A program made the translations under genes and the position numbers. From an uncultured Bifidobacteriaceae bacterium (lineage in GTDB: Bacteria > Actinomycetota > Acidimicrobiia > IMCC26256 > PALSA-555), in assembly GCA_964532485.1 (NCBI GenBank), contig CAZHKE010000004.1:15501-79500 (forward strand): a DNA stretch of 64,000 bases, in the 5' to 3' direction. The notes beneath the pieces are model-generated. The model ran no database searches. It saw only the letters and a program-made list of their open reading frames with translations, and was not told the DNA's origin. This document shows, in pieces, positions 1 to 54,950 of the stretch (its first letter is position 1; every line of letters begins with the position of its first letter).

Positions 1-719
1 ACACGAGCGGTGAAGACGTTCGTGCCGCCCATCAGGAACGTCGCCAAGGTGAGCATCAGGGTTGCGACGTGGAACATCGGCCCGCAGTTCAGGTACGTGT
101 ACTCCCACGTGACGTCCGACAGCGTCGCCATCACGTACCCCTCGAGCAGGCACGACGTGTGTGACAGCAGCGCGGCATTCGGACGGCCGCCGAACGCGGC
201 CGTGTACACCATCAGGGCGGGGGAGGACGCATCGACCAGGGCTCCCGGGTCTCGGTCGTCGCCGTCGCCCAGGAACGACTCGTACCCGTCGGGATCACGC
301 TCGGGTGCGTCGTGACGCAGCCAGCGCGCCGACGGAGTGGCCCGCGCACGGGCCGCGAGGACGGATTCGCCGACCTCGGACTCCTGCCACACGACGATGC
401 GCGGGTCGACGTCGTCGATCACGAACGCCAGCTCCTCGGGCGCCTGGCGCCAGTTCGCCGGGCAGCACACGCCGCCGAGCTCGCCCGCCGCGAGCAGGCA
501 TTCGAGGAGTCGCGAGGAGTTCTGCCCGACCCACAGGATCCGGTCACCGGGGCCGAAGCCGCTGCCCTGCAACGCGTCGGCGAGCTTGCGGACCCGCGTC
601 GCGAGCTGCGGGTACGTGCGCCTGACGTCCCCGTCGACGATCGCGACGGCGTGGGGCCGGCTGCGAGCGTGCTCCTGGAGGACGTCGGCGAGCGTCGGGT
701 GGCGAGCCGGGTCCATCAT
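1..719 (-). CDS. Class I adenylate-forming enzyme (acyl-CoA synthetase / FadD-like). N-terminal ~239 codons only; the gene continues past the left window edge.
   Basis: Absent from the ORF track because it runs off the edge. My reverse-strand translation from ATG at 719 reads MMDPARHPTLADVLQEHARSRPHAVAIVDGDVRRTYPQLATRVRKLADALQGSGFGPGDRILWVGQNS...RDPDGYESFLGDGDDRDPGA...ALMVYTAAFGGRPNAALLSHTS...LMLTLATFLMGGTNVFTAR, open down to base 3. The layout is typical of an AMP-binding family N-terminus. The P-loop-like motif is degenerate (YTAAFGGRPNA). Confidence 0.75.
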   Translation of the reverse strand, partial: MMDPARHPTLADVLQEHARSRPHAVAIVDGDVRRTYPQLATRVRKLADALQGSGFGPGDRILWVGQNSSRLLECLLAAGELGGVCCPANWRQAPEELAFVIDDVDPRIVVWQESEVGESVLAARARATPSARWLRHDAPERDPDGYESFLGDGDDRDPGALVDASSPALMVYTAAFGGRPNAALLSHTSCLLEGYVMATLSDVTWEYTYLNCGPMFHVATLMLTLATFLMGGTNVFTAR

Positions 720-3074: not shown

Positions 3075-4211
3075 ATGCGGACGCGGGTGTGCGAGCTGCT
3101 CGGGATCGAGTACCCGATCCTCGCGTTCAGCCACTGCCGGGACGTCGTCGCCGCGGTCACCAACTCGGGGGGCTTCGGCGTCCTCGGTGCCACCGCGCTC
3201 ACCCCGGAGCAGCTCGAGATCGACCTCGACTGGCTCGAGGCCGAGACGCGCGGCCGCCCGTTCGGCGTCGACGTGCTGTTTCCCGCGAGCTACGTGGGGC
3301 GTGACGACGCCCTCGACGCCGCCGCGCTCGAGGCACTGATCCCGCCGGAGCACCGGCGCTTCGTCGACGACCTGCTTCGCCGCTACGACGTGCCGGACTC
3401 ACCCGGCGGCGCAGACGGCGACGGCGACGCCGGGTCTGCGCTCGCGCTCGCGCCCGACCAGCTCGACCTGCTCGTCGAGGTCTCGCTGGCGCACCGAATC
3501 CGCCTCGTCGCCAACGCGTTGGGCCCGCCACCCCCCGATCTCGCCGCCCGCGCGCATGAACGAGACGTGCTCGTGGCCGCACTGGCGGGGTCGGTCGAGC
3601 ACGCCGAGCGCAACGTGGCCGCGGGCGCCGACCTGATCGTTGCCCAGGGGACCGAGGCCGGCGGGCACACCGGCGAGATCGCCACGATGGTGCTCGTCCC
3701 CGAGGTGGTCGACGCCGTCGCGCCGGTGCCCGTGCTGGCGGCAGGCGGCATCGCACGCGGGCGTCAGATCGCGGCCGCACTCGCGCTCGGGGCGGAAGGC
3801 GTGTGGACCGGTTCGGTGTGGCTGACCACGGACGAAGCCGAGACGCACCCGGTGGTCAAGCAGAAGATGTTGGCGGCCACGTCCCGCGACACCGTCCGGT
3901 CGCGCGCGGTCACCGGCAAGCCCGCGCGCCAGCTCCGCTCCGCCTGGACCGACGAGTGGGATGGTGCCGAGTCGCCCGGCTCGCTGCCGATGCCGCTACA
4001 GCCACTCCTGACCGACGACGCGCGGCGCCGCATCGAACGGGCGGCGTACCGTGACGGCTCGGGCGCGCAACAGCTCGTCAACTACTTCGTGGGCCAGGTC
4101 GTCGGGAGCATGCAGCAGGTGATGCCGGCCCGCCGCGTCGTGGCCGAGATGGTGGAGGAGCTCGCCGACACACTGCTCGCGCTCGACGGGTACCTGGAGC
4201 ACGCCGAGTGA
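3075..4211 (+). CDS. Nitronate monooxygenase / 2-nitropropane dioxygenase family FMN oxidoreductase (FabK-like)
   Basis: 378 aa. N-terminus reads MRTRVCELLGIEYPILAFSHCRDVVAAVTNSGGFGVLG; also GTEAGGHTGEIATMVL. The ATG at 3075 is preceded by GGAGGCGGAGG. Confidence 0.85.
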   Translation: MRTRVCELLGIEYPILAFSHCRDVVAAVTNSGGFGVLGATALTPEQLEIDLDWLEAETRGRPFGVDVLFPASYVGRDDALDAAALEALIPPEHRRFVDDLLRRYDVPDSPGGADGDGDAGSALALAPDQLDLLVEVSLAHRIRLVANALGPPPPDLAARAHERDVLVAALAGSVEHAERNVAAGADLIVAQGTEAGGHTGEIATMVLVPEVVDAVAPVPVLAAGGIARGRQIAAALALGAEGVWTGSVWLTTDEAETHPVVKQKMLAATSRDTVRSRAVTGKPARQLRSAWTDEWDGAESPGSLPMPLQPLLTDDARRRIERAAYRDGSGAQQLVNYFVGQVVGSMQQVMPARRVVAEMVEELADTLLALDGYLEHAE

Positions 4212-5485
4212 GCGGGGAGGACGAGCGCGAGCTGTGGGACCCGGCTGTCCAGGCTCTGGACCCGACCGAGGTCGAGGCCCGCGCGGCCGCCGGCCTTGCC
4301 GAGACGTGGGATCGCGTGTGGGCGCTGCCGTTCTACGCCGAGCGCTACCGCGCCGCCGGTCTGTCGCCGGGGCCGATGCCCGCCCTGTCCGACATCCCGC
4401 GCGTGACCAAGAGTGACCACCGCGCCGACGAGGCCGCACACCCCCCATTCGGCCGTCACCGCGCGGTCGCACTCGAGGACGCGATCCGTGTCGGGGTGTC
4501 GACCGGCACGACCGGCGCGCCGACGTTCATCTTCTACGGGAAACGGGATCTCGACGCGATGGTGCGGGTCGGCACACGCAACAACTGGCGACTCGGGCTG
4601 CGATCCGGCGACCGGTTCACCCACAGCTGGCCGCAGTACCTGTACCCGACCTCGGCGCACGGCGGGCGCCCCTACCTCGATCTCGGCGTCCTCGAGATCC
4701 CGGTGGGCCCACCGTTCTCCCCCGAGACCGCGGCCGAGCACCTTCGCGTCTGGGAGCGGCTCCGCCCCACCGGCTTCATGATGACGGCGTCGCAGTTCCA
4801 GACCTACGAGCGTGTCGGCGACGAGATCGGCATCGACTTCGCGGCGTGCATCGAGGGCAGCCTGCTCGTGTACCTGGATCTGGCCTGCCAGTTCGAGGCG
4901 CCACGGAAGCGGATCGAAGAGGCGTACGGCGTGCGCCTGCACAACCTGTCAGGCGCATCGGAGATCCCGGCCTTCAGCGTCAACGACAGCAGGTACCACC
5001 GGGGGTTCCAGGCCGCGGGCGATCACGTCCACATCGAGGTGTGCGACCCGATCACCGGCGCGGCGCTGCCCGACGGCGCCCGGGGCCATCTCGTGGTGTC
5101 GACCTTCGGTCTCGACGCTTGCTTCCTGCGCTACGACCTCGAGGACATCGTCGTTCGTGATACCGAACCCGACCCGACCGGCGAGACCGGCCCTCGCTAT
5201 GTCCTGATCGGCCGGGGCGCCGACGCGGTGACCGTCGACGGGCGAGATCCGATCTTCCCGCTCGACGTCCAGCTCGCGCTCGATGACCACGGCGCACCGG
5301 AGTTCCAGCTCGTGCCGGACGACGACACGTCGAGGCTTCACCTTCGAGTCGAGCACGATGGCGCGACCGGCGTGCTCGAGGGTCTGCTCGAGGAGCGCCT
5401 TGGTGTCGGCACGAGCGTCCAGGCAGTGGCGCCCGGGAGCCTGCCGCGAGCGGCCTTCAAGCCCCGGCGGATCGCGGCGGCATGA
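4208..5485 (+). CDS. PaaK / coenzyme F390 synthetase-type adenylate-forming enzyme (phenylacetate-CoA ligase-like), paralog 1
   Basis: 425 aa with the motif VSTGTTGAPTFIFYG, and PaaK-like length and layout. The GTG start overlaps the upstream stop (GTGA at 4208-4211). Confidence 0.8.
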   Translation: MSGEDERELWDPAVQALDPTEVEARAAAGLAETWDRVWALPFYAERYRAAGLSPGPMPALSDIPRVTKSDHRADEAAHPPFGRHRAVALEDAIRVGVSTGTTGAPTFIFYGKRDLDAMVRVGTRNNWRLGLRSGDRFTHSWPQYLYPTSAHGGRPYLDLGVLEIPVGPPFSPETAAEHLRVWERLRPTGFMMTASQFQTYERVGDEIGIDFAACIEGSLLVYLDLACQFEAPRKRIEEAYGVRLHNLSGASEIPAFSVNDSRYHRGFQAAGDHVHIEVCDPITGAALPDGARGHLVVSTFGLDACFLRYDLEDIVVRDTEPDPTGETGPRYVLIGRGADAVTVDGRDPIFPLDVQLALDDHGAPEFQLVPDDDTSRLHLRVEHDGATGVLEGLLEERLGVGTSVQAVAPGSLPRAAFKPRRIAAA

Positions 5486-8103
5486 CGCGTCGAGTGCTCG
5501 TGACGGGTGCGAGTGGAGTCTTCGGTCGTGACATCGCGACTCGACTGGCCCGGGCGGGTGCCGACGTCGTCGCGCTGGCGCGTCGCGAGGTCAGCATCCC
5601 GGGCGTCGAGTTCGTCGCCGGCGACATCCGCGACGCCGCCATCGTCGAGCAGGCGATGAAGGGCTGCGACGCGGTTGCGCACCTTGCGTGGGCCGTGTCG
5701 CCACTCAAGAGCAGGGACGACACGCACGACGTGAACGTGGGTGGCACGCAGAACGTGCTCGACGCAATGGACGCGACCGGATGTCGCCGCGTCGTGTTCT
5801 CGTCGTCGGTCACCGCATACGGTGCGTGGCCGGACAACCCGCCGCGCCTGCGCGAGACCGATCCGCTCCGCCCCGACCCGAGGATCTTGTACGCGTGGGA
5901 CAAGGCCCGCTGCGAGGAGCTGATCCTCGAGCGCGACCTCGACGCGGTGATCAGCCGGTCGTGCCTCGTCGTCGGTCGCCACATCGACAACTACGCGTTC
6001 CGGGTCTTCGCCGCTCCGATGCTCACGGCGCCGAAGGGCGAGATGCCGCTGTGGCAGTTCGTGCACCAGGAGGATGTCGGCCGCTTCCATGCCGACGCCG
6101 TGCTGGGTGACCGCACCGGCGTCGTGAACGTGGCCTGCGACGACGGCGTGCCGCTCGAGGAGATCGCCGAGGCGTTCGGCAAGCGGCTCGTGCACGTCGA
6201 CATCGACAAGATGGCGAAGGTCGTCGAGCTCGGGTGGAAGCACGACCTGATGGAGGTCGACCCCGACAGCCTCCAGGGCTTCCAGTACATGGCGGTCGCC
6301 GACACGACGAGACTGCGCGAGGAGTGGGGGTTCGAGCCCGCGTGGAGTGGGCGTGAGGCGATGCTCGACCTCGCGCGTTCGCTGACCCGAGTCGTGTACC
6401 TGGGCTACAAGGAGGTCCGCAAGCCGTGGCGACTCCGGTACGCGCGTACCGACATCCCGCCCGCGTATCCGCCGCTCGACGGCGTCGAGCTGGTCCAGGC
6501 ATCGGCGACGGGGGTCGGCGGCGAGTTCGACAGCGTGATCGATCCCCGCTTTCCGACGTTCTTCGCCACGAACCTCTCGGAGGCGTTCCCGGGTCCGATG
6601 ACGCCGCTGTCGCTCACCGTGAGCCTCGACGTGATGCGCGCCTCGTCCGACGGGATGGCCGACTTCCTCGGGCTCGAAGGCGATGTGAAGCGCGAGCTCC
6701 AGGCGCGTGGCGCCGCGGCCTTCGGGCACCGGATGTACGCGGGAGTCTCGGTCGTCCGCACGATGGCCGAGGCGATGCCGGGCATGACGCCGGAGGACAT
6801 CGATCACCAGTTCCTCGGTCTGGCGCGGACCGAGAGCACAACGAAGCGGCGGCCCTCTGTTCGCGAGGTGGCGCAAGGCGGCCGGTTGCTGGCGCACGTC
6901 GCGCCCCAGATCGCCGGGTTCGCACGCGAGATCGAGCGGGTCCAGGCCGAGGCACGTGTCCTCTTCCCCTCACCTGACGAGCTGGTCGGCATGACCGACC
7001 CGCAGCTGCTCGCGCACGTCGGGCTGGTGCACGACGAGCTCGGCCAGGCATGGAACGTCGCGTGCATCGGCAACATGATCGCCGGCGGCGCACTCGCCGC
7101 GGCCGAGCGGGCCGGTGCCGCCAACGCGGTCAGCGCCGCTGGTGGCGACTCCCCGTTGGTCAGCGCTGGGGCGTTGCTCGCCGTCGACGAGCTCGCGCGC
7201 TTGGCTCGTGAGCAGGCGAGGATCTCGGACGTCCTCGAGCGGGGCGTCCACGAGCAGACGCTCGACGCGCTACGGGAGGTCGCACCTTGGTGGGCCGCTC
7301 GCTTCGACGATCTGCTGCGCGACTTCGGGCACCGGGGACCGGGTGAGACCGAGCTCGAGAACCCGATGTTCTCCGACCGGCCTGATCTGCTCCTCGGGAC
7401 GATCGCGAAGGCGTTGCACGCGCCCGAGCGTCCCATGAGGCCGGAGCCCCCGTCCGGCGCGCTCGGGCGGCTCGCGGCGAGTGCGGTGAGTCGCGCGATG
7501 CGCACGCGCGAGCGGGCGCGTGATGCAGTTGTGCGTCTCACGCACGCCTTGCGGCTCGCGGCGCGCGAGCGCGCGCGACGGCTTGCGGAGGCGGGGGTCA
7601 TCGCCGATCCGGCCGACGTCTTCTACCTGAGCTACGCCGAGCTGCTCCACCCGCCGGCGGGCGTGGCGACCGCAGTGCCACGCCGCCGCGACGAACGGGA
7701 GCGTCTCAGGGCACTGCGGCTCCCGACCATGTTCACGCGCACGTGGGAGCCCGAGGCGAGCGACGCAGCGCTGGTCGCTCGGGGTGACCGCCTCAGCGGG
7801 ATCGCCGCCGCTCCGGGTGTCGCACGGGGTCGTGTGCGGATCCTGCGCGAGACGGGCGACGTGATCGAGCCCGGCGATGTGCTCGTCGCAGCCATCACCG
7901 ACACCGGCTGGACGCCGTTGTTCGCGTTCGCGTCCGCGGTGGTGACGGACATCGGTGGGCTGCTCTCACACCCCACGGTGGTCGCGCGGGAGTACGGGAT
8001 CCCGTGCGTCGTCGGGGTCGGAGACGCCACGCTGCGCTTGCGAGACGAGATGCTGGTCGAGGTCGACGGCGGGGGCGGCACCGTGCGCGTGCTCGAGACA
8101 TGA
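5482..8103 (+). CDS. Fusion protein: N-terminal NAD-dependent epimerase/dehydratase (extended SDR) domain, a central RPH/PpsA-like substrate-domain-like region, and a C-terminal PEP-utilizer phosphohistidine swivel domain
   Basis: 873 aa, one uninterrupted ORF. N-terminal domain: [18 protein letters not shown] (GxxGxxG) and YAWDK (YxxxK). Middle region: [19 protein letters not shown]-terminal domain: [54 protein letters not shown] overlap with the upstream gene at 5482-5485. Confidence 0.85.
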
Positions 8104-8912
8104 GCTCAGGCGACGCGGCGGTCCGGGCGGGCGACCGGCCCTTCTACGTCTCGGTCGGTGACGAGGAGACGATCTTCAAGGCCGCGCACCGACGCGGCCT
8201 GGCGGTGCTGCTCAAGGGACCCACCGGTACGGGCAAGACGCGCTTCGTCGAGGCCATGGCGCACGATCTCGGTCGGCCGTTGATCACCGTCGCATGCCAC
8301 GAGGACCTGACCGCGGCTGATCTCGTCGGCCGGTTCCTGTTGGAGGGGGGCGACACGGTCTGGGTCGACGGGCCGCTCACGCGCGCGGTGCGAGAGGGTG
8401 GGATCTGCTACCTCGACGAGGTGGTCGAGGCCCGCCAGGACACCACGGTCGTGCTGCACCCGCTGGCCGACCACCGCCGCGTGCTCGTGCTCGAGCGCCT
8501 CGGCGAGACGCTGGTCGCGCCGGATGGGTTCGGGCTGGTCGTGTCGTACAACCCGGGGTACCAGAGCGTGCTCAAGGACCTGAAGGACTCGACGCGCCAA
8601 CGGATGGTCGCGATCGAGCTCGGCTTCCCGCCCTCCGACGTGGAGGAGAAGGTGGTCGCGCACGAGGCAGGCGTGGACTCCGTGGTGGCGGCCGACCTCG
8701 TGCGGCTGGCGCAGGCCATCCGGCGCCTCGATCACTCGGGCCTGCGCGAGGTCGCGTCGACGCGGGTGCTGATCTCCGCCGGTCAGCTCGTCGTGGACGG
8801 GATCCCCGCACGTGCGGCGGCGCGCGCGGCGATCGCTGCACCGCTCACCGACGATCCCGGGCTCGCCGCCGGCCTGGCAGAGCTGGTGGACGCGTACCTC
8901 TCACCGGGGTGA
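8100..8912 (+). CDS. CbbQ/NirQ/NorQ/GpvN-family MoxR-class AAA+ ATPase
   Basis: Track ORF 8004..8912 was trimmed to ATG 8100, which overlaps the upstream stop (ATGA). Sequence reads [54 protein letters not shown] (Walker A) and [12 protein letters not shown] (Walker B). Length ~270 aa. Confidence 0.85.
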
Positions 8913-10590: not shown

Positions 10591-13388
10591 GACCTCGGCC
10601 CGGGAGTCGTGGCGACGCTCGCACCGTCGCCGCCGGGAGGACGATCCTCGTCAACCGGTTCGCCGAGGTAGGCGGAGATGACCGCGGGGTCGTCGCGGAT
10701 CTCGTCGGGTGTGCCGACGGCGATCGTGCGGCCGAAGTCGAGCGCCATGATTCGGTCGCAGATCGACAGGACGAGGCCCACATCGTGCTCGACGAGCAGG
10801 ATCGCGATGCCCCAGTCGTCGGCGAGTCGTCGGATCAGCTCGCCGAGCTCGGCGGTCTCGTCGTCGTCGAGACCGGCGGCGGGCTCGTCGAGCAACAGCA
10901 CCGACGCGTGCGTAGCAACCGCGCGCGCGATCCCGACGAGGCGCCGGCGCCCGAACGAAAGCTCGCCCGGACGGCGGTCGAGCTCCGACTCGAGATCGAA
11001 CTCGTCGACCGCAGCGATGGCGCTGGGCGAGAGGAGAGGGTCGCCGGGCCGGACCAGGTCGGTGAGATAGGCGAGCGGGTCGCGCGGATCCGACGCGGTG
11101 CGCAGGTTGTCGCGCACCGACATGTCATCGAACAGCTCGAGTGACTGGAACGACCGGGTGAGGCCGAGCCGCGCACGACGACGAGCGTTCAGCTCGGTGA
11201 TCGGCTCGTCGTCGAGCAGCACGTGGCCGTACCGGTGGCGCACGAAGCCGGTCGCGGCGTCGATGAGCGTCGTCTTCCCCGCGCCGTTGGGCCCGATCAG
11301 GCCGACGACCTCGCCCGGGTGCACGATGATGCTGGCGTCCTGAAGGGCGACCACCCCTCCGAAGTTCACCGTGAGCTCGCGCACCTCGAACGTCTTCGGC
11401 GTGACGCGCTCGCGGTCCACCTTGGGAAGGGCGGCGGGTGCGTCCGGCGCCTCACGGCGGTCGAGGCGGAGCCGGCGCGCGGCTGCGCGCAGCTGGCGGG
11501 CGTTCTGGGACGCGAGACCGTTGGGGTCCTGGAGCAGGATCACGATCAGGCCGAACCCGCCCACGATCTGGAACAGGTTCGCGACATCCTCACCGAGCAC
11601 GTTCTCGAGGATCTTGGGGCCCAGCGTGCCGATCGCCAGCATCGACCCGAACAATGGGCCGATCACGAACCCGACGCCGCCGATGACCGCGTAGACGACC
11701 GCGTTGATCGACTGCTCGACGCCGTAGCTCTCGCTGTAGACGATGGTGGTCGTGGTGAACGCGAGCAGCACCCCGGCGAGCGCGGCGATCGCGGCGCCGA
11801 ACGCGAACCCGTAGAGCTTGGCCCCGAAGACGCTGATGCCGAGCGAGGCTGCGGCACGCTCGTTGGTCCGCACGGCGACCATGCGCCGGCCGGCGCGTCC
11901 CCGGCGCAGGTTCGCGACCAGCATCATCACCAGCGCGAGGAGGACGACGCAGACCGTCGCGTAGCGCTCGACGTGGTTCACGCGGTCGATCGGCCAGCCG
12001 AACAGCGTCGGCGGGTCGACGATCAGCCCGGCGTCGAGCCCGCCCTCGGTCGTGAGCTCGACGTTGCGAAGGATGAGGTACTCGATCGCGACCGCCATCC
12101 CCATCGTGGCGACCGCGAGGTTCACCCCGCGGGTTCGCAGCGCCGGCAGGGCGACGATCAAGCCGACCGGGATGGTGCAGAGCACCCCGAGCACCAGCGC
12201 GAGCTCGAACGACATGCCGAGCTCGTGCGCGGCCTGACCCGCGAACCAGGCGCCCATCCCGGCGAGCGCGAACTGGGCGATCGACAGCTGTCCGGTGTAC
12301 CCGGTGACGACGACGAGCGACAGGGCGACGAGCGCGACGACCACCGTCGTGATCAGCGCGTCGGTCCACGAGTCGTCGAAGACGACCCAGATGAGCCCGA
12401 GGGCCGCCGCCACCGTGGCCGCGACGGGCAACGGACGGATCCGCCCGGAGCCGAGCTCGGGGAGCTTGGCCGATGCTTCGCCGCGCACGGGCAAGGCGCG
12501 CCCGCGGGCGACCAGCGTCAGGACGATCACGAGGAACGGCACCGCCCGCGCGAGCCCGGTGGTGCGGATGACGGCGGGCAGAGCGTCGGGCTCACCCGCG
12601 AGGTAGCTCATCTCCGCGGACAGGACGCCGATCAGGAGCGCGCCGAAGAAGGTGAGCGGGAACGACGTGAAGTTGCCGATGAGAGCGGCCGCCAGCGCCG
12701 GGATCACGAGCAGCGACAGGTCGAGCACGAGCAGCCCCGGGCCACCGGCGATGGGCGCCAGGAGGATCGCGGCGAGGCCGGCGAGCAGACCGCCGAGGAA
12801 CCAGTTGACCGCGGCGACGATGTTGGGGGAGCGGCCGAGCGCGGCTGTGGCGCGCTCGTTCTCGGCGACTGCGGAGGTGGCGAGGCCGAACGTCGAGTAG
12901 CGGTAGACGACGGTGAGCACCACGGTGAGGGCGGCGGCGATCCCGAGCAGGAGGAACCGGTCGACGCCGATGCCGTTGCCCTGCTCGAACAGGCCGAACA
13001 CGTTCTCCGAGGTCTGGGGCAGGAGCGAGACCGCGAGCCGGAACTCGGAGCCGAAGAGCTCCAGCCCCACGCCGATGAGCCCCGCGAAGAGGCCGAGGGT
13101 GGCGATGATCTTGGCGAGCCCGGTGGCTTGGCGCAGGCCTCGCATCACGAGCTGCATCCCGAGACCGATCAACGCGGGGACACCGAGCCCGACGATCAGC
13201 GCGAGCTTGTAGTCGACGCCGTCCTGGTCCTTGAGCTGGTAGAAGAGCTCGGCGCCCATCATCCCCATGGCGCCGCTCGCGAAGTTCAGGACGCCCGAGC
13301 CGCGGTAGACGAGCACAATGCCCTGTGCCGCCATCGCGTAGATCGCGCCGGCTCCGAGGCCGATGAGCGCGAACTGGAGGACCTTCAT
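10587..13388 (-). CDS. Single-polypeptide fusion of LivH-like permease, LivM-like permease and LivG-like ABC ATPase
   Basis: 933 aa. N-terminus MKVLQFALIGLGAGAIYAMAAQGIVLVYRGSGVLNFASGA (LivH-like). The centre holds many TM segments including GYTGQLSIAQFALAGMGAWFAG (LivM-like). The C-terminus has FEVRELTVNFGGVVALQDASIIVHPGEVVGLIGPNGAGKTTLID, LSFGRRRLVGIARA and VLLLDEPAAGL. Confidence 0.9.
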   Translation of the reverse strand: MKVLQFALIGLGAGAIYAMAAQGIVLVYRGSGVLNFASGAMGMMGAELFYQLKDQDGVDYKLALIVGLGVPALIGLGMQLVMRGLRQATGLAKIIATLGLFAGLIGVGLELFGSEFRLAVSLLPQTSENVFGLFEQGNGIGVDRFLLLGIAAALTVVLTVVYRYSTFGLATSAVAENERATAALGRSPNIVAAVNWFLGGLLAGLAAILLAPIAGGPGLLVLDLSLLVIPALAAALIGNFTSFPLTFFGALLIGVLSAEMSYLAGEPDALPAVIRTTGLARAVPFLVIVLTLVARGRALPVRGEASAKLPELGSGRIRPLPVAATVAAALGLIWVVFDDSWTDALITTVVVALVALSLVVVTGYTGQLSIAQFALAGMGAWFAGQAAHELGMSFELALVLGVLCTIPVGLIVALPALRTRGVNLAVATMGMAVAIEYLILRNVELTTEGGLDAGLIVDPPTLFGWPIDRVNHVERYATVCVVLLALVMMLVANLRRGRAGRRMVAVRTNERAAASLGISVFGAKLYGFAFGAAIAALAGVLLAFTTTTIVYSESYGVEQSINAVVYAVIGGVGFVIGPLFGSMLAIGTLGPKILENVLGEDVANLFQIVGGFGLIVILLQDPNGLASQNARQLRAAARRLRLDRREAPDAPAALPKVDRERVTPKTFEVRELTVNFGGVVALQDASIIVHPGEVVGLIGPNGAGKTTLIDAATGFVRHRYGHVLLDDEPITELNARRRARLGLTRSFQSLELFDDMSVRDNLRTASDPRDPLAYLTDLVRPGDPLLSPSAIAAVDEFDLESELDRRPGELSFGRRRLVGIARAVATHASVLLLDEPAAGLDDDETAELGELIRRLADDWGIAILLVEHDVGLVLSICDRIMALDFGRTIAVGTPDEIRDDPAVISAYLGEPVDEDRPPGGDGASVATTPGPRS

Positions 13389-18219: not shown

Positions 18220-18229
18220 GGGTCGGGGG

Positions 18230-32152: not shown

Positions 32153-32185
32153 TGCCGGGATGCTACGGACTTGACCCCAATCATG

Positions 32186-46683: not shown

Positions 46684-46726
46684 GACGAGCAAGATACAGT
46701 CGGCCGTCCGAGCGGGAGGAGCACCG

Positions 46727-47566: not shown

Positions 47567-49288
47567 TCACGGGGGATCCGCTCCCGGCGTCGACGCGCCG
47601 TCAGCCATGAGCTCGACGTCGCCGCGCGTGCCGTCCACGGTGACCGTCTGACCGGTCGCGAGGCGCGTCGAGCAGTCCTTGACGTTGATGACACACGGGA
47701 TCCCGAGCTCGCGGGCGATCACCGCGCCGTGCGAGAGCGCGCCGCCGAGGTCGATCACCGCCGCGGCGGCGTCGAGGAAGAGCGGTGTCCACGCCGGGTC
47801 GGTGGTGCGCGCCACGAGGACCTCACCCGGCTGGAGGTCGGCGGCGAACGGATCGGTGACGACCCGCACCTTGGCGGTGGCCATGCCCGGCGACGCGCCG
47901 AGCCCGTGCAACACCGGGCTGTCTGTCACCCCGGACCCGCCGACCGGCGCGGACGGGAGCAGCCCGAGCTGGCGAATGCGCTCGTCGGGAACGACGTCGA
48001 CCGAGCCGGGCGCCGCGAGGAACAGCTCGGGGAGCTCGAGGACGCGCGCGCGCTCGTGCACGCCGCGACGCCGCGCGACGTCGTCACGGCGATCAGGCGG
48101 GTTGGCCCGCACCACGTCGGCGACCACCTCGTCGAACGTGAGGAACCATCCGTCCTCGGGACGGTCGATCGCGCCACGGTCGACGAGCCGTCGCGCGGCC
48201 TCGCGGGCAGCGAGCCGGAGCCGCGCCACGCCCAACACCTCGGGCACCTTCGTGTTCTCCCGCCAGCGCAGGTGATGCTCGAGGCTCCGGAGCAGCCCGG
48301 CGAGAACTGGCCGGCGCGGTCCGGCATCCGCGCGAAGCCGCGCGCGCGCCGCGGCGACATCGCGTTCGACCGCGCGGTTGCGCTCGTCGCCGCGCGACCT
48401 CGTCTGCTCGACGAGCATCTCGAGGTACCGGTCGTCCTCGCCCCACGGGCGTGACGCGAGCTCGTACTCGATCGGTCCGCGGAACCCGTACTCCGTACGC
48501 CACGCGTCGAGTGTCATCAAGCCGTCGCCGACGCGACCGAGTGCAGTCATCGCATCGCTCGTGTGGATCCCGCCGATGTTGGTCATCGCGCGAGCCGCCA
48601 GTGCCGGACCCTCGTCCCCGCTGGTGCGCGTCGCGAGCTTCACGAGCTGCTCGTAGACGCTCGCTGCGATCATGTTCGACACGAGGAGCGGGACGCGCCA
48701 ACGCTCTGCGTTGACTGCGTAGAACGCGAGCTCTGCGACGAGCTCGGAGTCGTCGACGGCCGCCCAGTCGAGGTCAAGCGCCTGCTCCCAACGGCGACGA
48801 TTCTCCGCCTCGTAGACGCGGGAGTCGCGGGGGTATCGCCGCATCGCGCGCAGGACCCGCGCGCCGACCGAGGCGATCTGGCGTGGGCTGCCGCCGCCCG
48901 CCGGCTCGGCCCAGTCCGGGTCGGGCGGCAGACCGAAGTACTGCTCGCCGACCGCCTGCGCCGACCAGCCCGGCACGGCATCGGCCATGCGGAGCGTCGG
49001 CTCGAGCCCGACGGCGACGAACCCGTAGAACACGCCGGCACAGTCGACGACCGGCGCGCGCTCGATCAGGCCGAGCACGTCGGTGTACGTGGTCGGCAAC
49101 GAGCGGATCTGGGGCACCGCGACCGCCGTCTGCGTGAGCGGCGTCACCGGGTTCGGCCACTGGTCGGCGCCGTTGGCCCGGGTGTAGAGCCGCGGCTCGG
49201 CGGGCCACGTGCAGAGCTCGTCGTCGAGGTTCGCGAGGTCGCGCACGAGGTCCTCGGGTGTGTGCGCCGCCCTGTTGGGTCGCGTCAT
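47567..49288 (-). CDS. PEP-utilizer swivel-histidine protein without a recognisable ATP-grasp domain (RPH/PpsA-like substrate region plus mobile His domain), paralog b
   Basis: Track ORF 47567..49369 was trimmed to ATG 49288 (AAGGAG upstream). N-terminal ANGADQWPNPVTPLTQ. C-terminal GASPGMATAKVRVV...QPGEVLVARTTDPAWTPLFLDAAAAVIDLGGALSHGAVIARELGIPCVINV. Length ~573 aa. Confidence 0.85.
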   Translation of the reverse strand: MTRPNRAAHTPEDLVRDLANLDDELCTWPAEPRLYTRANGADQWPNPVTPLTQTAVAVPQIRSLPTTYTDVLGLIERAPVVDCAGVFYGFVAVGLEPTLRMADAVPGWSAQAVGEQYFGLPPDPDWAEPAGGGSPRQIASVGARVLRAMRRYPRDSRVYEAENRRRWEQALDLDWAAVDDSELVAELAFYAVNAERWRVPLLVSNMIAASVYEQLVKLATRTSGDEGPALAARAMTNIGGIHTSDAMTALGRVGDGLMTLDAWRTEYGFRGPIEYELASRPWGEDDRYLEMLVEQTRSRGDERNRAVERDVAAARARLRADAGPRRPVLAGLLRSLEHHLRWRENTKVPEVLGVARLRLAAREAARRLVDRGAIDRPEDGWFLTFDEVVADVVRANPPDRRDDVARRRGVHERARVLELPELFLAAPGSVDVVPDERIRQLGLLPSAPVGGSGVTDSPVLHGLGASPGMATAKVRVVTDPFAADLQPGEVLVARTTDPAWTPLFLDAAAAVIDLGGALSHGAVIARELGIPCVINVKDCSTRLATGQTVTVDGTRGDVELMADGASTPGADPP

Positions 49289-49304
49289 GGGCTCTCGCAC
49301 TCCT

Positions 49305-50162
49305 TCACGAGAGCCGGCGCAGGATGCCGTGCTCGGCGACCGCGGTCCCGTGGCCAGCCGCACCCGCATCGAGTGCCATGCACTCCTCGTAGGCCGCGAA
49401 CGTCGGCCCGCGCCGTTCGACCCCCATCGGTGCCCAGAACCCGACGCTGCTGCCGGCGCGCAACGTCAACGGACCGGTGCCCTCGACGACGACATCGAGT
49501 GCCCCCAGCAGCCCGGAGGCGGTCCGTGTGATCTCGGCGCTCACCACGGGCGTGGCGCTCGTGCCGAGCCGGTAGCCGCCGACCCGTGTCCCGCCGTCGG
49601 GCTCGAGGAACTTCGTCACGGTCAGGTCCCAATCGTCGAAGCACGCTCCGAGTGCGAGGTACTCGACGAACATCAGCGACTCGTCACGGAAGCCCCACGT
49701 GCGGTCGCGGAACCCGCGTGCCTCGACGTCGACGCGCCGATCGGCGATGATCAAGGTTCCGGTGACGTCGGCACCTTGCTGGTAGTGGGTGAGGGCGGGG
49801 TGTCCGGGCAACGGCGGGATCAGGTCGAGCGCGGTGTAGTCGGCGGGCACGTGGCGCGGCGTGGCGATGAGGTCGAGCGACATCCCTTCCGCGCGGACGC
49901 GGACGGGACCGTCGACGCCGAAGTCGATCGAGTCGCCGGTGAAGGTCGACGGTCCGAGGGGTTCGACGACCTCGGCGAGCCGACCGTCGACGACCACGCT
50001 CGCGCGAGCGCGACCGCCGTGGCCGGGCGACGTCGACACGTGGACCGCGCCACAGACGCCTCGCTCCTGGTCGAAGAACGAGAGGAACGCGTTCTCCCGC
50101 CATGGTGCGGTCTCGTCGTCCCGGGCGTGGAAGGGCTCGGCGAGTGGACCCCAGGTCGTCAC
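49305..50162 (-). CDS. Hypothetical protein (285 aa), beta-rich. No family recognised.
   Basis: Track ORF 49305..50390 was trimmed to GTG 50162, which overlaps the upstream stop (GTGA). Sequence: VTTWGPLAEPFHARDDETAPWRENAFLSFFDQERGVCGAVHVSTS...RGFRDRTWGFRDE. Confidence 0.65.
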   Translation of the reverse strand: MTTWGPLAEPFHARDDETAPWRENAFLSFFDQERGVCGAVHVSTSPGHGGRARASVVVDGRLAEVVEPLGPSTFTGDSIDFGVDGPVRVRAEGMSLDLIATPRHVPADYTALDLIPPLPGHPALTHYQQGADVTGTLIIADRRVDVEARGFRDRTWGFRDESLMFVEYLALGACFDDWDLTVTKFLEPDGGTRVGGYRLGTSATPVVSAEITRTASGLLGALDVVVEGTGPLTLRAGSSVGFWAPMGVERRGPTFAAYEECMALDAGAAGHGTAVAEHGILRRLS

Positions 50163-53258: not shown

Positions 53259-54950
53259 ATGAGCGGTCGCCGCGCTCCCTGGCGCCTGCCGCGCGCGGAG
53301 ACCGCCGTGCCCGCCGACGTGCCCCCGCCCGACGGCACACCGCTCGTCGATGCGGGCCCACCCGGTGTCGCCGGCGAGCTCGACACGCGGATCGACCCCC
53401 GCTTTCCGCTCTACACCGCGTCGAACCTCTCCGAGGCGTTCCCCGGACCCATGACGCCGCTGTCGCTCGACCTCACGATGCACGCGATGCGCGGCTCCTC
53501 GCGCGTGTCGGCCACCCTCTACGGGCTCGAGGAGCCGCTCGCCACCGAGCTGCTGCGCTCGGTCGCGGTGTTCGGCCACCGCGTCTACGGCGGAGTCTCG
53601 ATCCTGCGTGAGCTCGCCGAGGTGATGCCCGGATGGTCCCCGGAGGAGATCGACCATCAGTACCTCGGGATCCCGCTGCCCGAGGAGCGCACTCGCACCC
53701 GTGTGTCGACGGGCGCCGTGATGCGCGGCCTGCGGGTCGGCACCACCGTCGCTCTCCTTGCCGCGGGCCTTCGTCGGGAGGTCGACGAGGTCGTTGCGAC
53801 GGCGGCGCGGCTCACGTCCGATCTTGATGCGCTGGCCGGGCTCGACGACACCGCGCTCGCCAGGCGGATCACCACGTTGCACGACGAGGTCGTGCAGGCG
53901 TGGGTCGTCTCGACCTTCTGCACGGTCCTGGCCGGCGGCGTCCTCTCGGCGATCGAGAAGGCCGGTGGTGTGCCGGTTCGCTCGGGTCCGGGCGCACGCC
54001 GCCTCGACAGCGTCGGCGCGCTCGCTGGCGTGGCGGCCATCGCCGACCGGGCTCGGAGTGAGCCCGCGGTTGCCGAGGTGCTGCGCACGAAGCCGCCCGC
54101 GGAAGCCCTGCGCGAGCTACGGGAACGAGCTCCGTGGCTCGCACGGTCGATCGACGACGTCATCCGCGACCACGGACACCGCGGACCCGGCGAGACCGAC
54201 CTCGCGAGCCCCATGTTCGCCGACGACCCTGCACTGCTCGTCGACGTCGTCAGGAAGACGCTCGATGCCCCCGCGCGGCCCGCGCCCGACGTGCCGGCGC
54301 TCTCACGGCACCAGCGTGTGCTCGCTCGCCTCGCGCACCGGACGATGCTCACGCGCGAGCGCTCTCGTGATGCGGTCGTACGGATGACCCATGCGCTGCG
54401 GCTCGCGGTGCGCGAGCGTGGAGTCCGACTCGCCGCGGCCAGAACGCTGGGGCGCCCCGACGATGTGCACTACCTCGTGTTCGCCGAGCTGCGCGACCCG
54501 CCGCGGGACGCGCGCGACGCCGTGGCCAGGCGGCGCGCCGAGCGTGCTCGCCTGGCGAGGGTTCGCATGCCTCCCCTCTTCGCCGGTCACTGGGAGCCCG
54601 AGGTCGACGCCGGTGCCCGGCTCGAGCCCGGAGAGGTGATCAGTGGGATCCCGGCGTCGCCCGGCACGGTCCGGGCGAGGGTGCGCGTGCTCGAGGCCGA
54701 CTCGCTCCACGACCTCGAGCCCGATGAGGTGCTCGTCGCCGCCACCACCGACACCGGGTGGACGCCGCTCTTCGCGTTCGCCGCCGCGGTGGTCACCGAC
54801 ATCGGAGCACAGATCTCGCATGCCGCGGTCGTCGCCCGGGAGTTCGGCGTCCCGGCCGTCGTCGGCACCCGAGAGGCGACGCGGCGCCTGCGCACCGGCC
54901 AGCTCGTCGACGTCGACGGCGCCGCGGGGACGGTGACGGCGGTCGACTGA
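53259..54950 (+). CDS. PEP-utilizer swivel-histidine protein without a recognisable ATP-grasp domain, paralog c
   Basis: Track ORF 52860..54950 was trimmed to ATG 53259. [19 protein letters not shown] near the N-terminus. C-terminal GIPASPGTVRARVRVL...[50 protein letters not shown]. Length ~563 aa. Confidence 0.85.
   Translation: MSGRRAPWRLPRAETAVPADVPPPDGTPLVDAGPPGVAGELDTRIDPRFPLYTASNLSEAFPGPMTPLSLDLTMHAMRGSSRVSATLYGLEEPLATELLRSVAVFGHRVYGGVSILRELAEVMPGWSPEEIDHQYLGIPLPEERTRTRVSTGAVMRGLRVGTTVALLAAGLRREVDEVVATAARLTSDLDALAGLDDTALARRITTLHDEVVQAWVVSTFCTVLAGGVLSAIEKAGGVPVRSGPGARRLDSVGALAGVAAIADRARSEPAVAEVLRTKPPAEALRELRERAPWLARSIDDVIRDHGHRGPGETDLASPMFADDPALLVDVVRKTLDAPARPAPDVPALSRHQRVLARLAHRTMLTRERSRDAVVRMTHALRLAVRERGVRLAAARTLGRPDDVHYLVFAELRDPPRDARDAVARRRAERARLARVRMPPLFAGHWEPEVDAGARLEPGEVISGIPASPGTVRARVRVLEADSLHDLEPDEVLVAATTDTGWTPLFAFAAAVVTDIGAQISHAAVVAREFGVPAVVGTREATRRLRTGQLVDVDGAAGTVTAVD

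What the first reader, a model, noticed from the sequence alone, without database searches (positions are those of the whole stretch)
5482..8103. Domain fusion: an NAD-epimerase/SDR domain sits where the ATP-grasp domain of a PpsA/rifampin-phosphotransferase-like protein would be
The ORF is uninterrupted at 873 codons.
- Residues ~1-320 carry GxxGxxG (VTGASGVFG) and YxxxK (YAWDK) of extended SDRs.
- From ~residue 350 the protein is colinear with the two shorter paralogs in this window. Compare [15 protein letters not shown] with [16 protein letters not shown] in paralog c and WPNPVTPLTQ in paralog b.
- It ends in the conserved swivel-His domain.

In PEP synthase, PPDK and rifampin phosphotransferase, the N-terminal position is occupied by the ATP-binding domain. 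A redox domain in that position is not an architecture I know. It suggests that oxidation/epimerisation and phosphoryl transfer are coupled on one substrate.
Basis: partly seen in the sequence, partly recalled or inferred. Interest (0 to 1): 0.75.

Follow-up and report, generated by a model that had tools for sequence, protein, structure and literature searches.

The report
Rv2047c-type reductase–phosphotransferase fusion protein
The 873-residue gene really does join an NAD(P)-dependent reductase domain to the drug-binding and phosphate-carrying domains of a rifampin-phosphotransferase-like enzyme. This design is already catalogued across actinobacteria (Mycobacterium tuberculosis Rv2047c is the known example), although nobody has yet shown what it does.

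Summary
Window 5482-8103 (+) is one uninterrupted 873-codon gene with three parts: an extended SDR (residues 1-~313), an RPH-type substrate-binding domain (351-~765) and a phosphohistidine swivel domain (~766-873). The SDR occupies the N-terminal position that the ATP-grasp domain holds in RPH-like enzymes.

The fusion is not an assembly artefact. More than 100 independent full-length homologs are colinear across the linker, and AlphaFold2 gives pLDDT 90 and pTM 0.92.

The architecture is not new:
- A curated NCBIfam model (NF004520) matches end to end.
- M. tuberculosis Rv2047c has been described with these two domains.
- Reduction coupled to phosphorylation was proposed for Rv2047c in 2008.

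The window protein is a paralogous Acidimicrobiia subfamily member, not an Rv2047c ortholog. It sits in a conserved, translationally coupled operon: FabK-like NMO, PaaK-like ligase, fusion, CbbQ-type AAA+.

Both active sites are conserved: the Ser-Tyr-Lys triad and swivel His830.

No ATP-grasp gene lies in the 64 kb window, so His830 is most likely charged in trans. This step is inferred, not shown.

Verdict: a new member of a known but biochemically uncharacterised kind, of moderate interest.

The parts
3075..4211 (+). FabK-like nitronate monooxygenase / enoyl reductase (NMO), first gene of the operon
   Evidence: Pfam NMO 1.6e-56 and TIGR03151 FabK 1.1e-53. Its stop overlaps the start of the next gene. 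It is conserved upstream of the fusion in L081, L083 and L084.
4208..5485 (+). PaaK-like adenylate-forming acyl-CoA ligase, translationally coupled to the fusion (ATGA overlap at 5482-5485)
   Evidence: TIGR02155 PaaK 1.9e-25. The best solved relative is 2-hydroxyisobutyryl-CoA synthetase 6hdw, 9.3e-30. The sequence reads gcATGAcg at 5482. A 423-426 aa gene with no Pfam hit sits in the same slot in L083 and L084, and the homolog in L001 is 71-80% identical.
5482..6420 (+). Fusion protein, residues 1-313: extended SDR (Rossmann fold plus substrate subdomain)
   Evidence: Pfam Epimerase 3.6e-27. TGxxGxxG (residues 8-15), Ser108/109, Tyr137 and Lys141 are invariant or at least 90% conserved. Foldseek TM 0.7-0.77 to GDP-4-keto-6-deoxymannose reductase and GalE. 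Arg34 is invariant and Arg35 at least 90% conserved directly after strand beta-2, from which NADP(H) preference is inferred using established SDR rules.
6421..6531 (+). Fusion protein, residues 314-350: conserved linker (PWRL...GEFD)
   Evidence: P315, R317, G347, E348 and D350 are conserved. pLDDT is 86-94. SDR-less paralog c keeps the same motif.
6532..7776 (+). Fusion protein, residues 351-765: RPH-type (rifampin-binding-domain-like) helical substrate-binding domain
   Evidence: hhalign against RPH-like profiles gives probability 100, E 1.8e-75. The top Foldseek hits are RPH-Lm 5fbu/5hv1/5fbt at E 1e-19 to 1e-20 over ~590 columns. Close homologs carry the precomputed Pfam PF27448 'Rph_4th'. 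N364, E367, A368 and G616-H-R-G-P-x-E-x-E624 are invariant.
7777..8103 (+). Fusion protein, residues 766-873 plus stop: phosphohistidine swivel domain. The His830 codon is at 7969-7971.
   Evidence: Pfam PEP-utilizers 1.7e-21. T806, D807, G809, T811, G825, S829 and H830 are invariant in 70 sequences. The region aligns to the RPH-Lm swivel domain, PDB 5fbs, at 1.5e-22.
8100..8912 (+). CbbQ/NorQ-type MoxR AAA+ ATPase, translationally coupled (ATGA overlap with the fusion's stop)
   Evidence: Pfam AAA_5 9e-36 and CbbQ_C 6.9e-28. The sequence reads acATGAgc at 8098-8105. It occupies the same position in L081, L084 and L001.
53259..54950 (+). Paralog c: SDR-less form (linker + RPH-type domain + swivel), 563 aa
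   Evidence: 50% identical to fusion residues 313-872. It keeps the PWRLP linker, GHRGPGE and SH motifs. It nests inside the fusion clade in a neighbour-joining tree.
47567..49369 (-). Paralog b: distant RPH-type domain + swivel protein, 600 aa, in an operon with a second PaaK-like ligase, a DUF7065 protein and a P450
   Evidence: 29% identical. PEP-utilizers 1.4e-23. Neighbours are identified. The two PaaK-like paralogs are 32% identical.

Best explanation
This is a genuine three-domain enzyme of the Rv2047c family. It has an NADP(H)-type extended SDR, an RPH-type hydrophobic-substrate-binding domain and a phosphohistidine swivel domain.

**Most likely mechanism.**
1. An acyl-derived, lipid-like substrate is activated by the co-translated PaaK-like ligase. 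This parallels acyl-ACP coming from Pks12 in the mycobacterial clade.
2. The SDR domain reduces a carbonyl or thioester to a hydroxyl.
3. The RPH-type domain binds the hydroxyl compound.
4. Phospho-His830 swings in and transfers its phosphate, giving a phosphate ester.

**Phosphoryl source.** The protein has no ATP-grasp domain, and none is encoded within 64 kb. His830 would therefore be charged in trans by a separately encoded ATP-grasp protein. Candidates are a short PpdK-type protein or a HpeI/PpsB-type protein, as in two-component dikinases.

**Shown here:** the domain identities, colinearity with RPH, conservation of both active sites, operon conservation and absence of a local ATP-grasp gene.

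**Inferred:** the substrate class, the order of the two reactions, the NADPH preference and the trans phosphoryl donor.
For: **Domains and fold.**

**Active sites.** Ser-Tyr-Lys and Ser829-His830 are invariant or nearly so in 70-115 homologs.

**Operon.** NMO, PaaK-like ligase, fusion and CbbQ are linked by ATGA overlaps. The arrangement is conserved in five other Acidimicrobiia assemblies at 55-88% identity; L081 lacks the PaaK-like gene.

**A source of activated acyl groups recurs nearby.**
- An adenylate-forming ligase is near the fusion in 7 of 26 sources (25 loci plus the window).
- A fully reducing Pks12-like PKS lies directly upstream in 6 Mycobacterium loci.

**A phosphatase recurs downstream.** A Y_phosphatase3 gene follows the fusion in 10 loci, which suggests a phosphate-ester product.

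**Precedent for a trans ATP-grasp.** In HpeHI, CreHI and PpsAB the substrate-binding + swivel protein is charged by a separate ATP-grasp subunit (PMC12167813).

**The phosphotransfer module can stand without the SDR.** SDR-less forms (paralog c, P0153, P0157) nest inside the fusion clade.

**One ATP-grasp can accompany two modules.** L024 and L026 each encode one ATP-grasp followed by two substrate-binding + swivel modules in a single ORF.

**Short PpdK link.**
- A short PpdK (ATP-grasp + swivel, NF004531 863 bits, above its cutoff) lies about 7 kb from the fusion in L003. A partial one lies about 8.5 kb away in L021.
- In M. tuberculosis TnSeq, ppdK, pks12 and rv2047c are all more strongly required at high mycobactin (PMC7058343).

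**Published hypothesis.** The same reduce-then-phosphorylate role was proposed for Rv2047c in PMC2443190.
Against: - No biochemistry exists for any family member in the literature searched.
- The SDR looks like a generic extended SDR. Epimerase scores 96 bits. The thioester-reductase model NAD_binding_4 scores 19.1 bits, below its 20.1 cutoff. A thioester-reducing role is therefore not specifically supported.
- No ATP-grasp gene is adjacent in 23 of 25 fusion loci, or in the four extra look-ups. In known two-component dikinases the two genes are neighbours.
- The short PpdK has its own swivel domain, so how it would charge a second one is unclear.
- Gene context differs strongly between clades (PKS, KstD-like flavoprotein, acyl-CoA dehydrogenases, P450s). 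Substrates probably differ too, and extrapolation from Rv2047c is weak. The window protein scores only 522 bits against NF004520, versus 994-1298 for PKS-linked members.
Confidence: 0.5

Rival explanations
1. Activation then reduction. The RPH-type module phosphorylates a carboxylate or enolisable carbonyl oxygen first, making an acyl or enol phosphate. The SDR then reduces the activated carbon. This would be a carboxylic-acid-reductase-like logic, with phosphate in place of AMP or thioester.
For: - RPH-family relatives PigC and RedH appear among the NCBIfam hits at 1e-33 to 1e-39. From my own knowledge, not checked here, they use the same phosphotransfer chemistry to activate a carbonyl for condensation.
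- Arg34 and Arg35 suggest NADPH and a reductive direction.
- The domain order places the SDR next to the substrate-binding domain, with a confident inter-domain model (pTM 0.92).
Against: - The co-translated PaaK-like ligase already provides carboxylate activation, which would make a second activation redundant.
- The known end product of the mycobacterial pks12/Rv2047c locus is a stable alkyl phosphate ester, which fits reduction first (PMC2443190).
- Known acyl-phosphate reductases are not SDRs (established knowledge).
Confidence: 0.15
2. The phosphotransfer module is not catalytic here. The RPH-type and swivel domains serve only as a large lid or substrate-binding (or regulatory) appendage of an ordinary SDR.
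For: - No phosphoryl donor domain or gene is present locally.
- Databases name the family simply as an epimerase/dehydratase family protein.
Against: - His830, Ser829, the TDxGWT motif and the GHRGPGE motif are invariant over 39-88% identity to the query. This is hard to explain without catalysis.
- SDR-less members persist as separate genes in the same clade.
Confidence: 0.1
3. The SDR functionally replaces the ATP-grasp domain. The bound dinucleotide (NADP(H) or NAD) is itself the phosphoryl or nucleotidyl donor to the swivel histidine, or a redox sensor gating it. The enzyme would then be self-contained.
For: - The SDR sits exactly at the ATP-grasp position, and residue numbering is almost the same as in RPH (query 683-871 aligns with RPH 673-866).
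- The high pTM implies a fixed SDR/substrate-domain arrangement.
- ATP-grasp genes are absent nearby.
Against: - The full hydride-transfer triad Ser-Tyr-Lys is conserved, which argues for ordinary SDR chemistry.
- There is no precedent for a swivel histidine attacking a pyridine dinucleotide.
- SDR-less paralogs in the same clade must obtain phosphate some other way.
Confidence: 0.05
4. Assembly or frameshift artefact: two adjacent genes (an SDR and a substrate-binding + swivel protein) wrongly joined.
For: In one related nanopore MAG (L001) the gene is broken into several frames. Databases therefore hold split products P0015 (621 aa) and possibly P0017 (533 aa, from a different contig).
Against: - More than 100 full-length homologs from independent JGI, ENA, NCBI and Logan assemblies and from isolate genomes are colinear over the linker.
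- The codon-position GC signature is continuous.
- The linker is conserved and confidently modelled.
- The L001 breaks fall inside the SDR domain, not at the linker, and affect neighbouring genes too. They are sequencing errors.
Confidence: 0.01

Closest known systems
Mycobacterium tuberculosis Rv2047c and NCBIfam NF004520 (PRK05865, 'sugar epimerase family protein')
   Same: - It has the same three-part architecture, and the model matches end to end (residues 4-872 against model positions 2-838 of 854, E 2e-156).
- The SDR triad and the swivel histidine are conserved.
[quoted passage not shown]
- Reduction plus phosphorylation has been hypothesised for it (PMC2443190).
   Different: - The window protein scores 522 bits, against the 1509 equivalog cutoff and 994-1298 bits for Pks12-linked mycobacterial members.
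- No PKS is nearby. It sits in an NMO, PaaK-like ligase, fusion, CbbQ operon in an Acidimicrobiia-like genome.
- It falls in a separate clade in the neighbour-joining tree.
- That NF004520 was built on Rv2047c itself is my recollection. It is supported only indirectly, by the high scores of pks12-linked loci.
Rifampin phosphotransferase (RPH; PDB 5FBS/5FBT/5FBU/5HV1)
   Same: The substrate-binding (RIF-binding-type) domain and the C-terminal swivel His domain are homologous and colinear. Evidence: Foldseek E 1e-19 to 1e-20 over ~590 columns, phmmer 1.5e-22 and family-level hhalign E 1.8e-75.
   Different: - The N-terminal ATP-grasp (PPDK_N) domain is replaced by an extended SDR.
- NF041857 scores 121 bits against a 999 cutoff.
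- Sequence identity to RPH is about 17-18%.
Two-component small-molecule dikinases HpeHI, CreHI and phenylphosphate synthase PpsAB
   Same: - The substrate-binding + swivel polypeptide lacks an ATP-grasp domain and is charged by a separate ATP-grasp protein.
- The catalytic histidine sits in a T/SxxGGxxxH motif (PMC12167813).
- Paralogs b and c in this window have this HpeH-like layout.
   Different: - In those systems the ATP-grasp subunit gene is adjacent and the substrates are phenols.
- Here no ATP-grasp gene lies within 64 kb.
- An SDR is fused on the N-terminus.
Prodigiosin ligases PigC, RedH and HapC
   Same: They are RPH-family enzymes using a swivel histidine. The C-terminal ~200 residues match at 1e-33 to 1e-39.
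   Different: The window protein lacks the ATP-grasp domain those enzymes keep and scores far below their cutoffs (133 and 115 bits against 1350 and 1300). That they catalyse condensation rather than making a stable phosphate ester is my own knowledge, not checked here.
Carboxylic acid reductases and NRPS/PKS terminal reductase (R) domains
   Same: The logic is similar: an adenylate-forming or carrier-bound activated acyl group is handed to an SDR-fold NADPH reductase. Here the adenylating enzyme is a separate, translationally coupled PaaK-like protein.
   Different: - No carrier-protein domain is present.
- The SDR matches the R-domain model NAD_binding_4 only below its threshold (19.1 bits against 20.1).
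- CAR and R domains have no phosphotransfer module.

Membership tests
Rv2047c-type SDR + RPH-domain + swivel fusion family (NF004520 architecture) | N-terminal extended SDR with TGxxGxxG and a Ser-Tyr-Lys triad | tested here: met
   PF01370 scores 95.8 bits against a cutoff of 20.9. The motifs are conserved.
Rv2047c-type SDR + RPH-domain + swivel fusion family (NF004520 architecture) | Central RPH-type substrate-binding domain (Pfam PF27448 Rph_4th) | tested here: met
   hhalign E 1.8e-75 and Foldseek hits to RPH. PF27448 is precomputed on the ~100%-identical P0001 and on all full-length homologs. PF27448 is absent from the local Pfam copy.
Rv2047c-type SDR + RPH-domain + swivel fusion family (NF004520 architecture) | C-terminal PEP-utilizers swivel domain with the catalytic histidine | tested here: met
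   PF00391 scores 76 bits against a cutoff of 23.1. S829 and H830 are invariant.
Rv2047c-type SDR + RPH-domain + swivel fusion family (NF004520 architecture) | End-to-end match to the family model | tested here: met
   NF004520 aligns residues 4-872 with model positions 2-838 of 854, E 2.3e-156.
Rv2047c equivalog (ortholog of the pks12-linked gene) | Score at or above the NF004520 equivalog cutoff (1509 bits) | tested here: not met
   522 bits. PKS-linked mycobacterial loci L010 and L018 reach 1298 and 994 bits.
Rv2047c equivalog (ortholog of the pks12-linked gene) | Located directly downstream of a Pks12-like fully reducing PKS | tested here: not met
   The upstream genes are NMO and a PaaK-like ligase. 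The PKS linkage is seen only in L008, L010, L011, L018, L019 and L022.
Rifampin phosphotransferase (RPH) | N-terminal ATP-grasp (PPDK_N, PF01326) domain | tested here: not met
   No PPDK_N hit in the protein. A PPDK_N profile finds nothing significant in any frame of the window.
Rifampin phosphotransferase (RPH) | RIF-binding-type domain plus swivel histidine domain | tested here: met
Rifampin phosphotransferase (RPH) | Score above the NF041857 cutoff (999 bits), or rifampin phosphorylation activity | tested here: not met
   121 bits. Enzyme activity is not testable with these tools.
Two-component small-molecule dikinase (HpeHI/CreHI/PpsAB) | Adjacent gene for a stand-alone ATP-grasp subunit | tested here: not met
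   None in the 64 kb window. None within +-10 kb in 23 of 25 fusion loci or in L081 and L083-L085.
Two-component small-molecule dikinase (HpeHI/CreHI/PpsAB) | Swivel histidine phosphorylated from ATP via a partner protein | not testable with these tools
   This requires a 32P-labelling or activity assay.
PEP synthase / pyruvate phosphate dikinase | C-terminal PEP/pyruvate-binding TIM-barrel domain (PEP-utilizers_C) | tested here: not met
   No such Pfam hit. Matches to the PEP synthase and PPDK models cover only the swivel region.
Extended SDR (NAD-dependent epimerase/dehydratase family) | Pfam gathering threshold, Rossmann motif and catalytic triad | tested here: met
   Foldseek TM 0.7-0.77 to solved extended SDRs.

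The most novel reading that the evidence does not exclude
The whole family, including Rv2047c, could be the missing reduce-and-phosphorylate enzyme. It would convert activated acyl chains (from a PKS or a PaaK/FadD-type ligase) into lipid phosphate esters. Its swivel histidine would be charged in trans by a shared, genome-wide ATP-grasp donor such as the orphan short PpdK. That would be a PTS-like arrangement in which one general phosphoryl donor serves many substrate-specific modules. In this window that would include the fusion and paralogs b and c.
Probability: 0.3. Interest if true: 0.65.

Novelty: new member of a known kind. Interest (0 to 1): 0.35.

Why it matters
The family is a known unknown with medical relevance. 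M. tuberculosis lacking rv2047c is poisoned by its own siderophore mycobactin (PMC7058343). The gene sits beside pks12, the source of the CD1c-presented mannosyl phosphomycoketide antigens. The steps that reduce and phosphorylate that lipid have never been assigned.

The window adds three things:
- The architecture extends to uncultured Acidimicrobiia, in a different but conserved operon.
- SDR-less derivatives coexist in the same genome.
- No ATP-grasp donor is encoded nearby.

This sharpens one testable question for the whole family: where does the phosphate on the swivel histidine come from? The window does not reveal a new kind of system.

Tried and rejected
- **Frameshift or assembly artefact: rejected.** The split proteins P0015 and P0017 appear to trace to frameshifted nanopore MAGs such as L001.
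- **ATP-grasp partner in the window: none found.** I built a PPDK_N profile from RPH-like N-termini and verified one of those N-termini as PF01326. It found no hit at E<1 among the six-frame ORFs of the window. The unannotated upstream 425-aa gene is a PaaK-like ligase, not an ATP-grasp protein.
- **PaaK-like ligase as a general partner of these modules: not general.** The two PaaK-like genes of the window have tblastn hits only in L001 among the 82 loci held at that point. Close Acidimicrobiia relatives do keep a gene in that slot. Other clades have AMP-binding ligases or a PKS instead.
- **Conserved unknown 335-aa neighbour 'c12': unresolved.** It has no Pfam or PDB match and is absent from the window.
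- **One 'Rv2047c' literature hit is spurious.** The mention in PMC6851703 lists it in a succinate dehydrogenase gene range, apparently a typo.
- **The 2026 Pks12 preprint does not mention Rv2047c**.
- **No paper pairs 'phosphohistidine swiveling domain' with 'epimerase'**.
- **P0075 (Nocardioides) context look-up failed.** The protein is not on record.

Full report
**1. Observation**

The window has about 70% G+C. ORF 5482-8103 (+) is listed as 873 aa and translates without a stop.

- VTGASGVFG at residue 7
- YAWDK at residue 137
- [15 protein letters not shown] at residue 364
- [16 protein letters not shown] in paralog c
- WPNPVTPLTQ in paralog b

Pfam finds two domains:
- An NAD-dependent epimerase/dehydratase (extended SDR) domain at residues 5-203 (3.6e-27)
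- A PEP-utilizers mobile (swivel) domain at residues 795-865 (1.7e-21)

A tblastn search of the protein against the window recovers both paralogs:
- c: 50% identity to residues 313-872
- b: 29% identity to residues 354-871

**2. Is the fusion real?**

Yes. Four lines of evidence agree:
- Third-position G+C stays at 0.83-0.94 in every 300-nt block of the ORF, including the linker.
- The big protein collection holds 267 hits at E<=1e-10. Of the best 120, 115 are full length (820-920 aa) at 39-100% identity. They come from independent JGI, ENA, NCBI and Logan assemblies.
- 110 of those 115 have at most 3 indels across residues 295-365.
- AlphaFold2 with a 70-sequence alignment gives mean pLDDT 90 and pTM 0.92. 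No segment falls below 50, and the linker scores 86-94.

The only 'split' versions among close relatives trace to two causes. Some come from contig ends. Others come from nanopore MAGs such as L001, which carries frameshifts inside the SDR region and in neighbouring genes.

**3. Does the SDR sit where the ATP-grasp would be?**

Yes, in linear order.
- A profile of 70 fusion proteins aligns to a profile of 11 full-length RPH-like proteins over fusion residues 351-873 and RPH-like residues 297-858 (probability 100, E 1.8e-75).
- The N-terminal ~300 residues of those RPH-like proteins are PPDK_N ATP-grasp domains (PF01326, 7e-81). They align with nothing in the fusion.
- Foldseek puts rifampin phosphotransferase structures first (5fbu, 5hv1, 5fbt; E 1e-19 to 1e-20; ~590 columns). 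It then matches the N-domain to extended SDRs such as GDP-4-keto-6-deoxymannose reductase and GalE (TM 0.7-0.77).
- Residue numbering is almost the same as in RPH: query 683-871 aligns with RPH 673-866.

Whether the SDR occupies the same 3-D docking surface could not be tested.

**4. Is the architecture unknown?**

No.
- NCBIfam NF004520 (PRK05865, 'sugar epimerase family protein', 854 positions) matches end to end, although below its equivalog cutoff (522 against 1509 bits).
- Source names include 'NAD-dependent epimerase/dehydratase family protein' and JGI's 'nucleoside-diphosphate-sugar epimerase/phosphohistidine swiveling domain-containing protein'.
- A newer Pfam family, PF27448 'Rph_4th', is precomputed on the middle region.
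- A species-level genome scan found about 23 full-length loci. They are in Acidimicrobiia and other Actinomycetota MAGs, Mycobacterium, Mycolicibacterium and Nocardia.
- An exhaustive search with the junction segment (residues 151-520) against 1.84 billion representatives gave 44 hits at E<=1e-30. By my count of the listed hits, roughly 35-40 clusters at 50% identity span the SDR-to-RPH-domain junction.
[quoted passage not shown] Its deletion makes the bacterium sensitive to mycobactin (PMC7058343).
- Chopra et al. (2008) proposed that it reductively releases the mycoketide chain and that its swivel domain phosphorylates it (PMC2443190).

No biochemical test of this was found.

**5. Where the window protein sits in the family**

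- Six Mycobacterium loci have the fusion directly downstream of a giant ORF. In L010 this ORF is a fully reducing bimodular PKS with DH-ER-KR-ACP-KS-AT-DH-ER-KR domains. It is followed by a LipT-like carboxylesterase, or by an acyl-CoA dehydrogenase and a Y_phosphatase3 gene.
- The two PKS-linked members tested score 994 and 1298 bits on NF004520. The window protein and other non-PKS members score 382-529 bits.
- The closest species-level genome is an Acidimicrobiia MAG (L001, 74% identity), and it is syntenic with the window.
- A rough neighbour-joining tree of the RPH-type and swivel region, without bootstrap, puts the window protein with Acidimicrobiia sequences. The PKS-linked clade is separate.

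The window protein is therefore a paralogous subfamily member, not an Rv2047c ortholog.

**6. Local context**

The gene is the third of four translationally coupled genes:
- FabK-like NMO, 3075-4211
- PaaK-like adenylate-forming ligase, 4208-5485. Its best solved relative is 2-hydroxyisobutyryl-CoA synthetase (9.3e-30).
- The fusion, 5482-8103
- CbbQ/NorQ-type AAA+ ATPase, 8100-912

ATGA overlaps link the last three genes.

A family III CoA-transferase lies upstream on the other strand. A BKACE gene and a branched-chain-type ABC transporter lie downstream.

The block is conserved in independent Acidimicrobiia assemblies at 88%, 75%, 74% and 55% identity; L081 lacks the PaaK-like gene. Those at 88%, 75% and 55% also carry a second fusion paralog 3-8 kb away, and a VWA protein lies nearby in the 75% and 55% loci.

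The rest of the annotated part of the window is rich in lipid- and xenobiotic-type catabolic genes:
- P450s
- Acyl-CoA dehydrogenases
- Enoyl-CoA hydratases
- SDRs
- Amidohydrolases
- An EcKL kinase

**7. Active sites**

Conserved in 70-115 homologs:
- SDR: T8-G9-x-x-G12-x-x-G15, Ser108/Ser109, Tyr137 and Lys141 are invariant or at least 90% conserved.
- Cofactor: Arg34 is invariant and Arg35 at least 90% conserved immediately after strand beta-2. By the established SDR cofactor rule this predicts NADP(H) rather than NAD. This is an inference.
- Phosphotransfer module: N364, E367-A368, G616-H-R-G-P-x-E-x-E624, T806-D807-x-G809-x-T811, and G825...S829-H830 are invariant.

Both halves therefore look catalytically competent.

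**8. The phosphoryl donor problem**

RPH and its relatives load the swivel histidine from ATP bound in the ATP-grasp domain. The fusion has no such domain.

A PPDK_N profile finds none in any frame of the 64 kb window. That window holds three ATP-grasp-less modules: the fusion, b and c.

A precedent exists for a separate ATP-grasp subunit. In HpeHI, CreHI and PpsAB, a substrate-binding + swivel protein is charged by a stand-alone ATP-grasp protein (PMC12167813). In those systems, however, the genes are adjacent.

Among the 25 fusion loci, a short PpdK (ATP-grasp + swivel, without a PEP domain) lies within 10 kb in only two:
- L003, where it scores 863 bits on NF004531, above its cutoff
- L021, where it is partial

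In M. tuberculosis TnSeq, ppdK, pks12 and rv2047c are all more strongly required at high mycobactin.

Two further observations bear on this:
- In L024 and L026 a single ORF encodes one ATP-grasp followed by two substrate-binding + swivel modules. One ATP-grasp can therefore accompany more than one module.
- SDR-less forms that begin exactly at the conserved linker (paralog c, P0153, P0157) nest inside the fusion clade. The phosphotransfer module evidently works without the SDR.

Charging in trans is the most economical reading, but it is inferred.

**9. Proposed mechanism and rivals**

Best reading (confidence about 0.5 overall; the domain-level part is near certain): an NADPH-dependent reduction and a histidine-mediated phosphorylation act on one acyl-derived hydrophobic substrate.
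- The substrate is supplied here by the PaaK-like ligase and, in mycobacteria, by Pks12.
- His830 is charged in trans.

Supporting context:
- Adenylate-forming ligases or a PKS recur next to the fusion.
- A Y_phosphatase3 gene lies immediately downstream in 10 loci, which hints at a phosphate-ester product.

Weaknesses:
- The SDR is a generic extended SDR, and the thioester-reductase model scores below its threshold.
- Context differs between clades.
- The donor is unidentified.

Rivals:
- Activation by phosphorylation followed by reduction (0.15)
- A non-catalytic phosphotransfer remnant (0.1)
- The dinucleotide bound in the SDR acting as donor or sensor in place of ATP (0.05)
- Assembly artefact (0.01)

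**10. Verdict**

The structural interpretation (SDR in the ATP-grasp position, coupled chemistry plausible) holds. The novelty claim does not.

This is a new, environmentally derived member of the known but uncharacterised Rv2047c-type family. Interest is moderate (0.35). It rests mainly on the unresolved phosphoryl donor and the link to mycobacterial lipid antigen biosynthesis.

Noticed in passing
window 45461-51664 (- strand): Paralog b sits in its own operon: a second PaaK-like ligase (50159-~51367, 32% identical to the one beside the fusion), a DUF7065 protein (49305-50390), paralog b (47567-49369) and a cytochrome P450 (45461-47266). So two of the three ATP-grasp-less RPH-type modules in the window are paired with a PaaK-like adenylating enzyme.
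   Followed up: partly
L002:5155-6159 and 11748-12815; L004:6613-7620; L005:12655-13614 and 19507-20487; L023:12655-13614; L082:6959-7978; L003:15553-16440: An unknown ~335-aa protein family ('c12') has no Pfam hit and no solved relative. In five of these six loci a copy lies next to the fusion gene; in L003 it is about 3 kb away. It is absent from the window. It may be a dedicated partner in non-PKS clades.
   Followed up: partly
L013-L016, L018-L022 (immediately downstream of the fusion) and L004: A Y_phosphatase3 gene with a signal-peptide-like N-terminus follows the fusion in Nocardia loci and in PKS-linked Mycobacterium loci (10 loci in all). A phosphatase next to a putative phosphotransferase suggests a phosphorylated intermediate or product.
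   Followed up: partly
L024:2355-7004 and L026:387-4904: Single stop-free ORFs of ~1500 aa in two Actinobacteria MAGs encode one PPDK_N ATP-grasp domain followed by two tandem substrate-binding + swivel modules. Each ORF has two GGPLSH histidine motifs. This is an unusual duplicated RPH-like architecture.
   Followed up: partly
L003:1026-2711 (-); L021:10570-12069 (-): A short PpdK (ATP-grasp + swivel without a PEP/pyruvate domain) lies 7-9 kb from the fusion in an Actinomycetota MAG and in Nocardia aobensis. It scores 863 bits on NF004531 in L003. It is a candidate trans phosphoryl donor.
   Followed up: partly
L001:10001-12615 and neighbouring genes: The closest species-level genome (an Acidimicrobiia nanopore MAG) has frameshifts that break the fusion and its neighbours into several frames. 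This generates spurious split proteins in public protein collections (for example P0015, 621 aa, with only Rph_4th + PEP-utilizers).
   Followed up: yes
L081:2598-5240; L083:2070-4685; L085:10001-12616: Acidimicrobiia relatives carry a second fusion paralog (about 50% identical) 3-8 kb upstream of the syntenic copy. In L083 and L085 it sits in a TetR, SDR, fusion unit, followed by a P450 in L085. The window appears to begin just downstream of where that copy would lie: its first partial gene, 3-728 (-), clusters with the AMP-binding ligases of those loci.
   Followed up: partly
window 8100-8912; L081:856-2613; L085:3411-5138: A CbbQ/NorQ-type MoxR AAA+ ATPase is translationally coupled to the fusion. 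In relatives a VWA-domain protein lies nearby. Such pairs usually remodel or mature a partner enzyme. Its role here is unexplained.
   Followed up: no
window 18149-19381 and 28574-32798: A nucleoside-salvage or catabolism cluster: adenosine deaminase, two tandem S-adenosylhomocysteine-hydrolase-like genes (28574-30106 and 29824-31206, as stop-free frames), an inosine-uridine nucleoside hydrolase and a cytidine deaminase.
   Followed up: no
window 55639-56916: An ecdysteroid-kinase-like (EcKL, PF02958) small-molecule kinase gene lies next to paralog c, among four enoyl-CoA hydratase genes. This is another sign that the region processes hydroxylated lipophilic compounds by phosphorylation.
   Followed up: no
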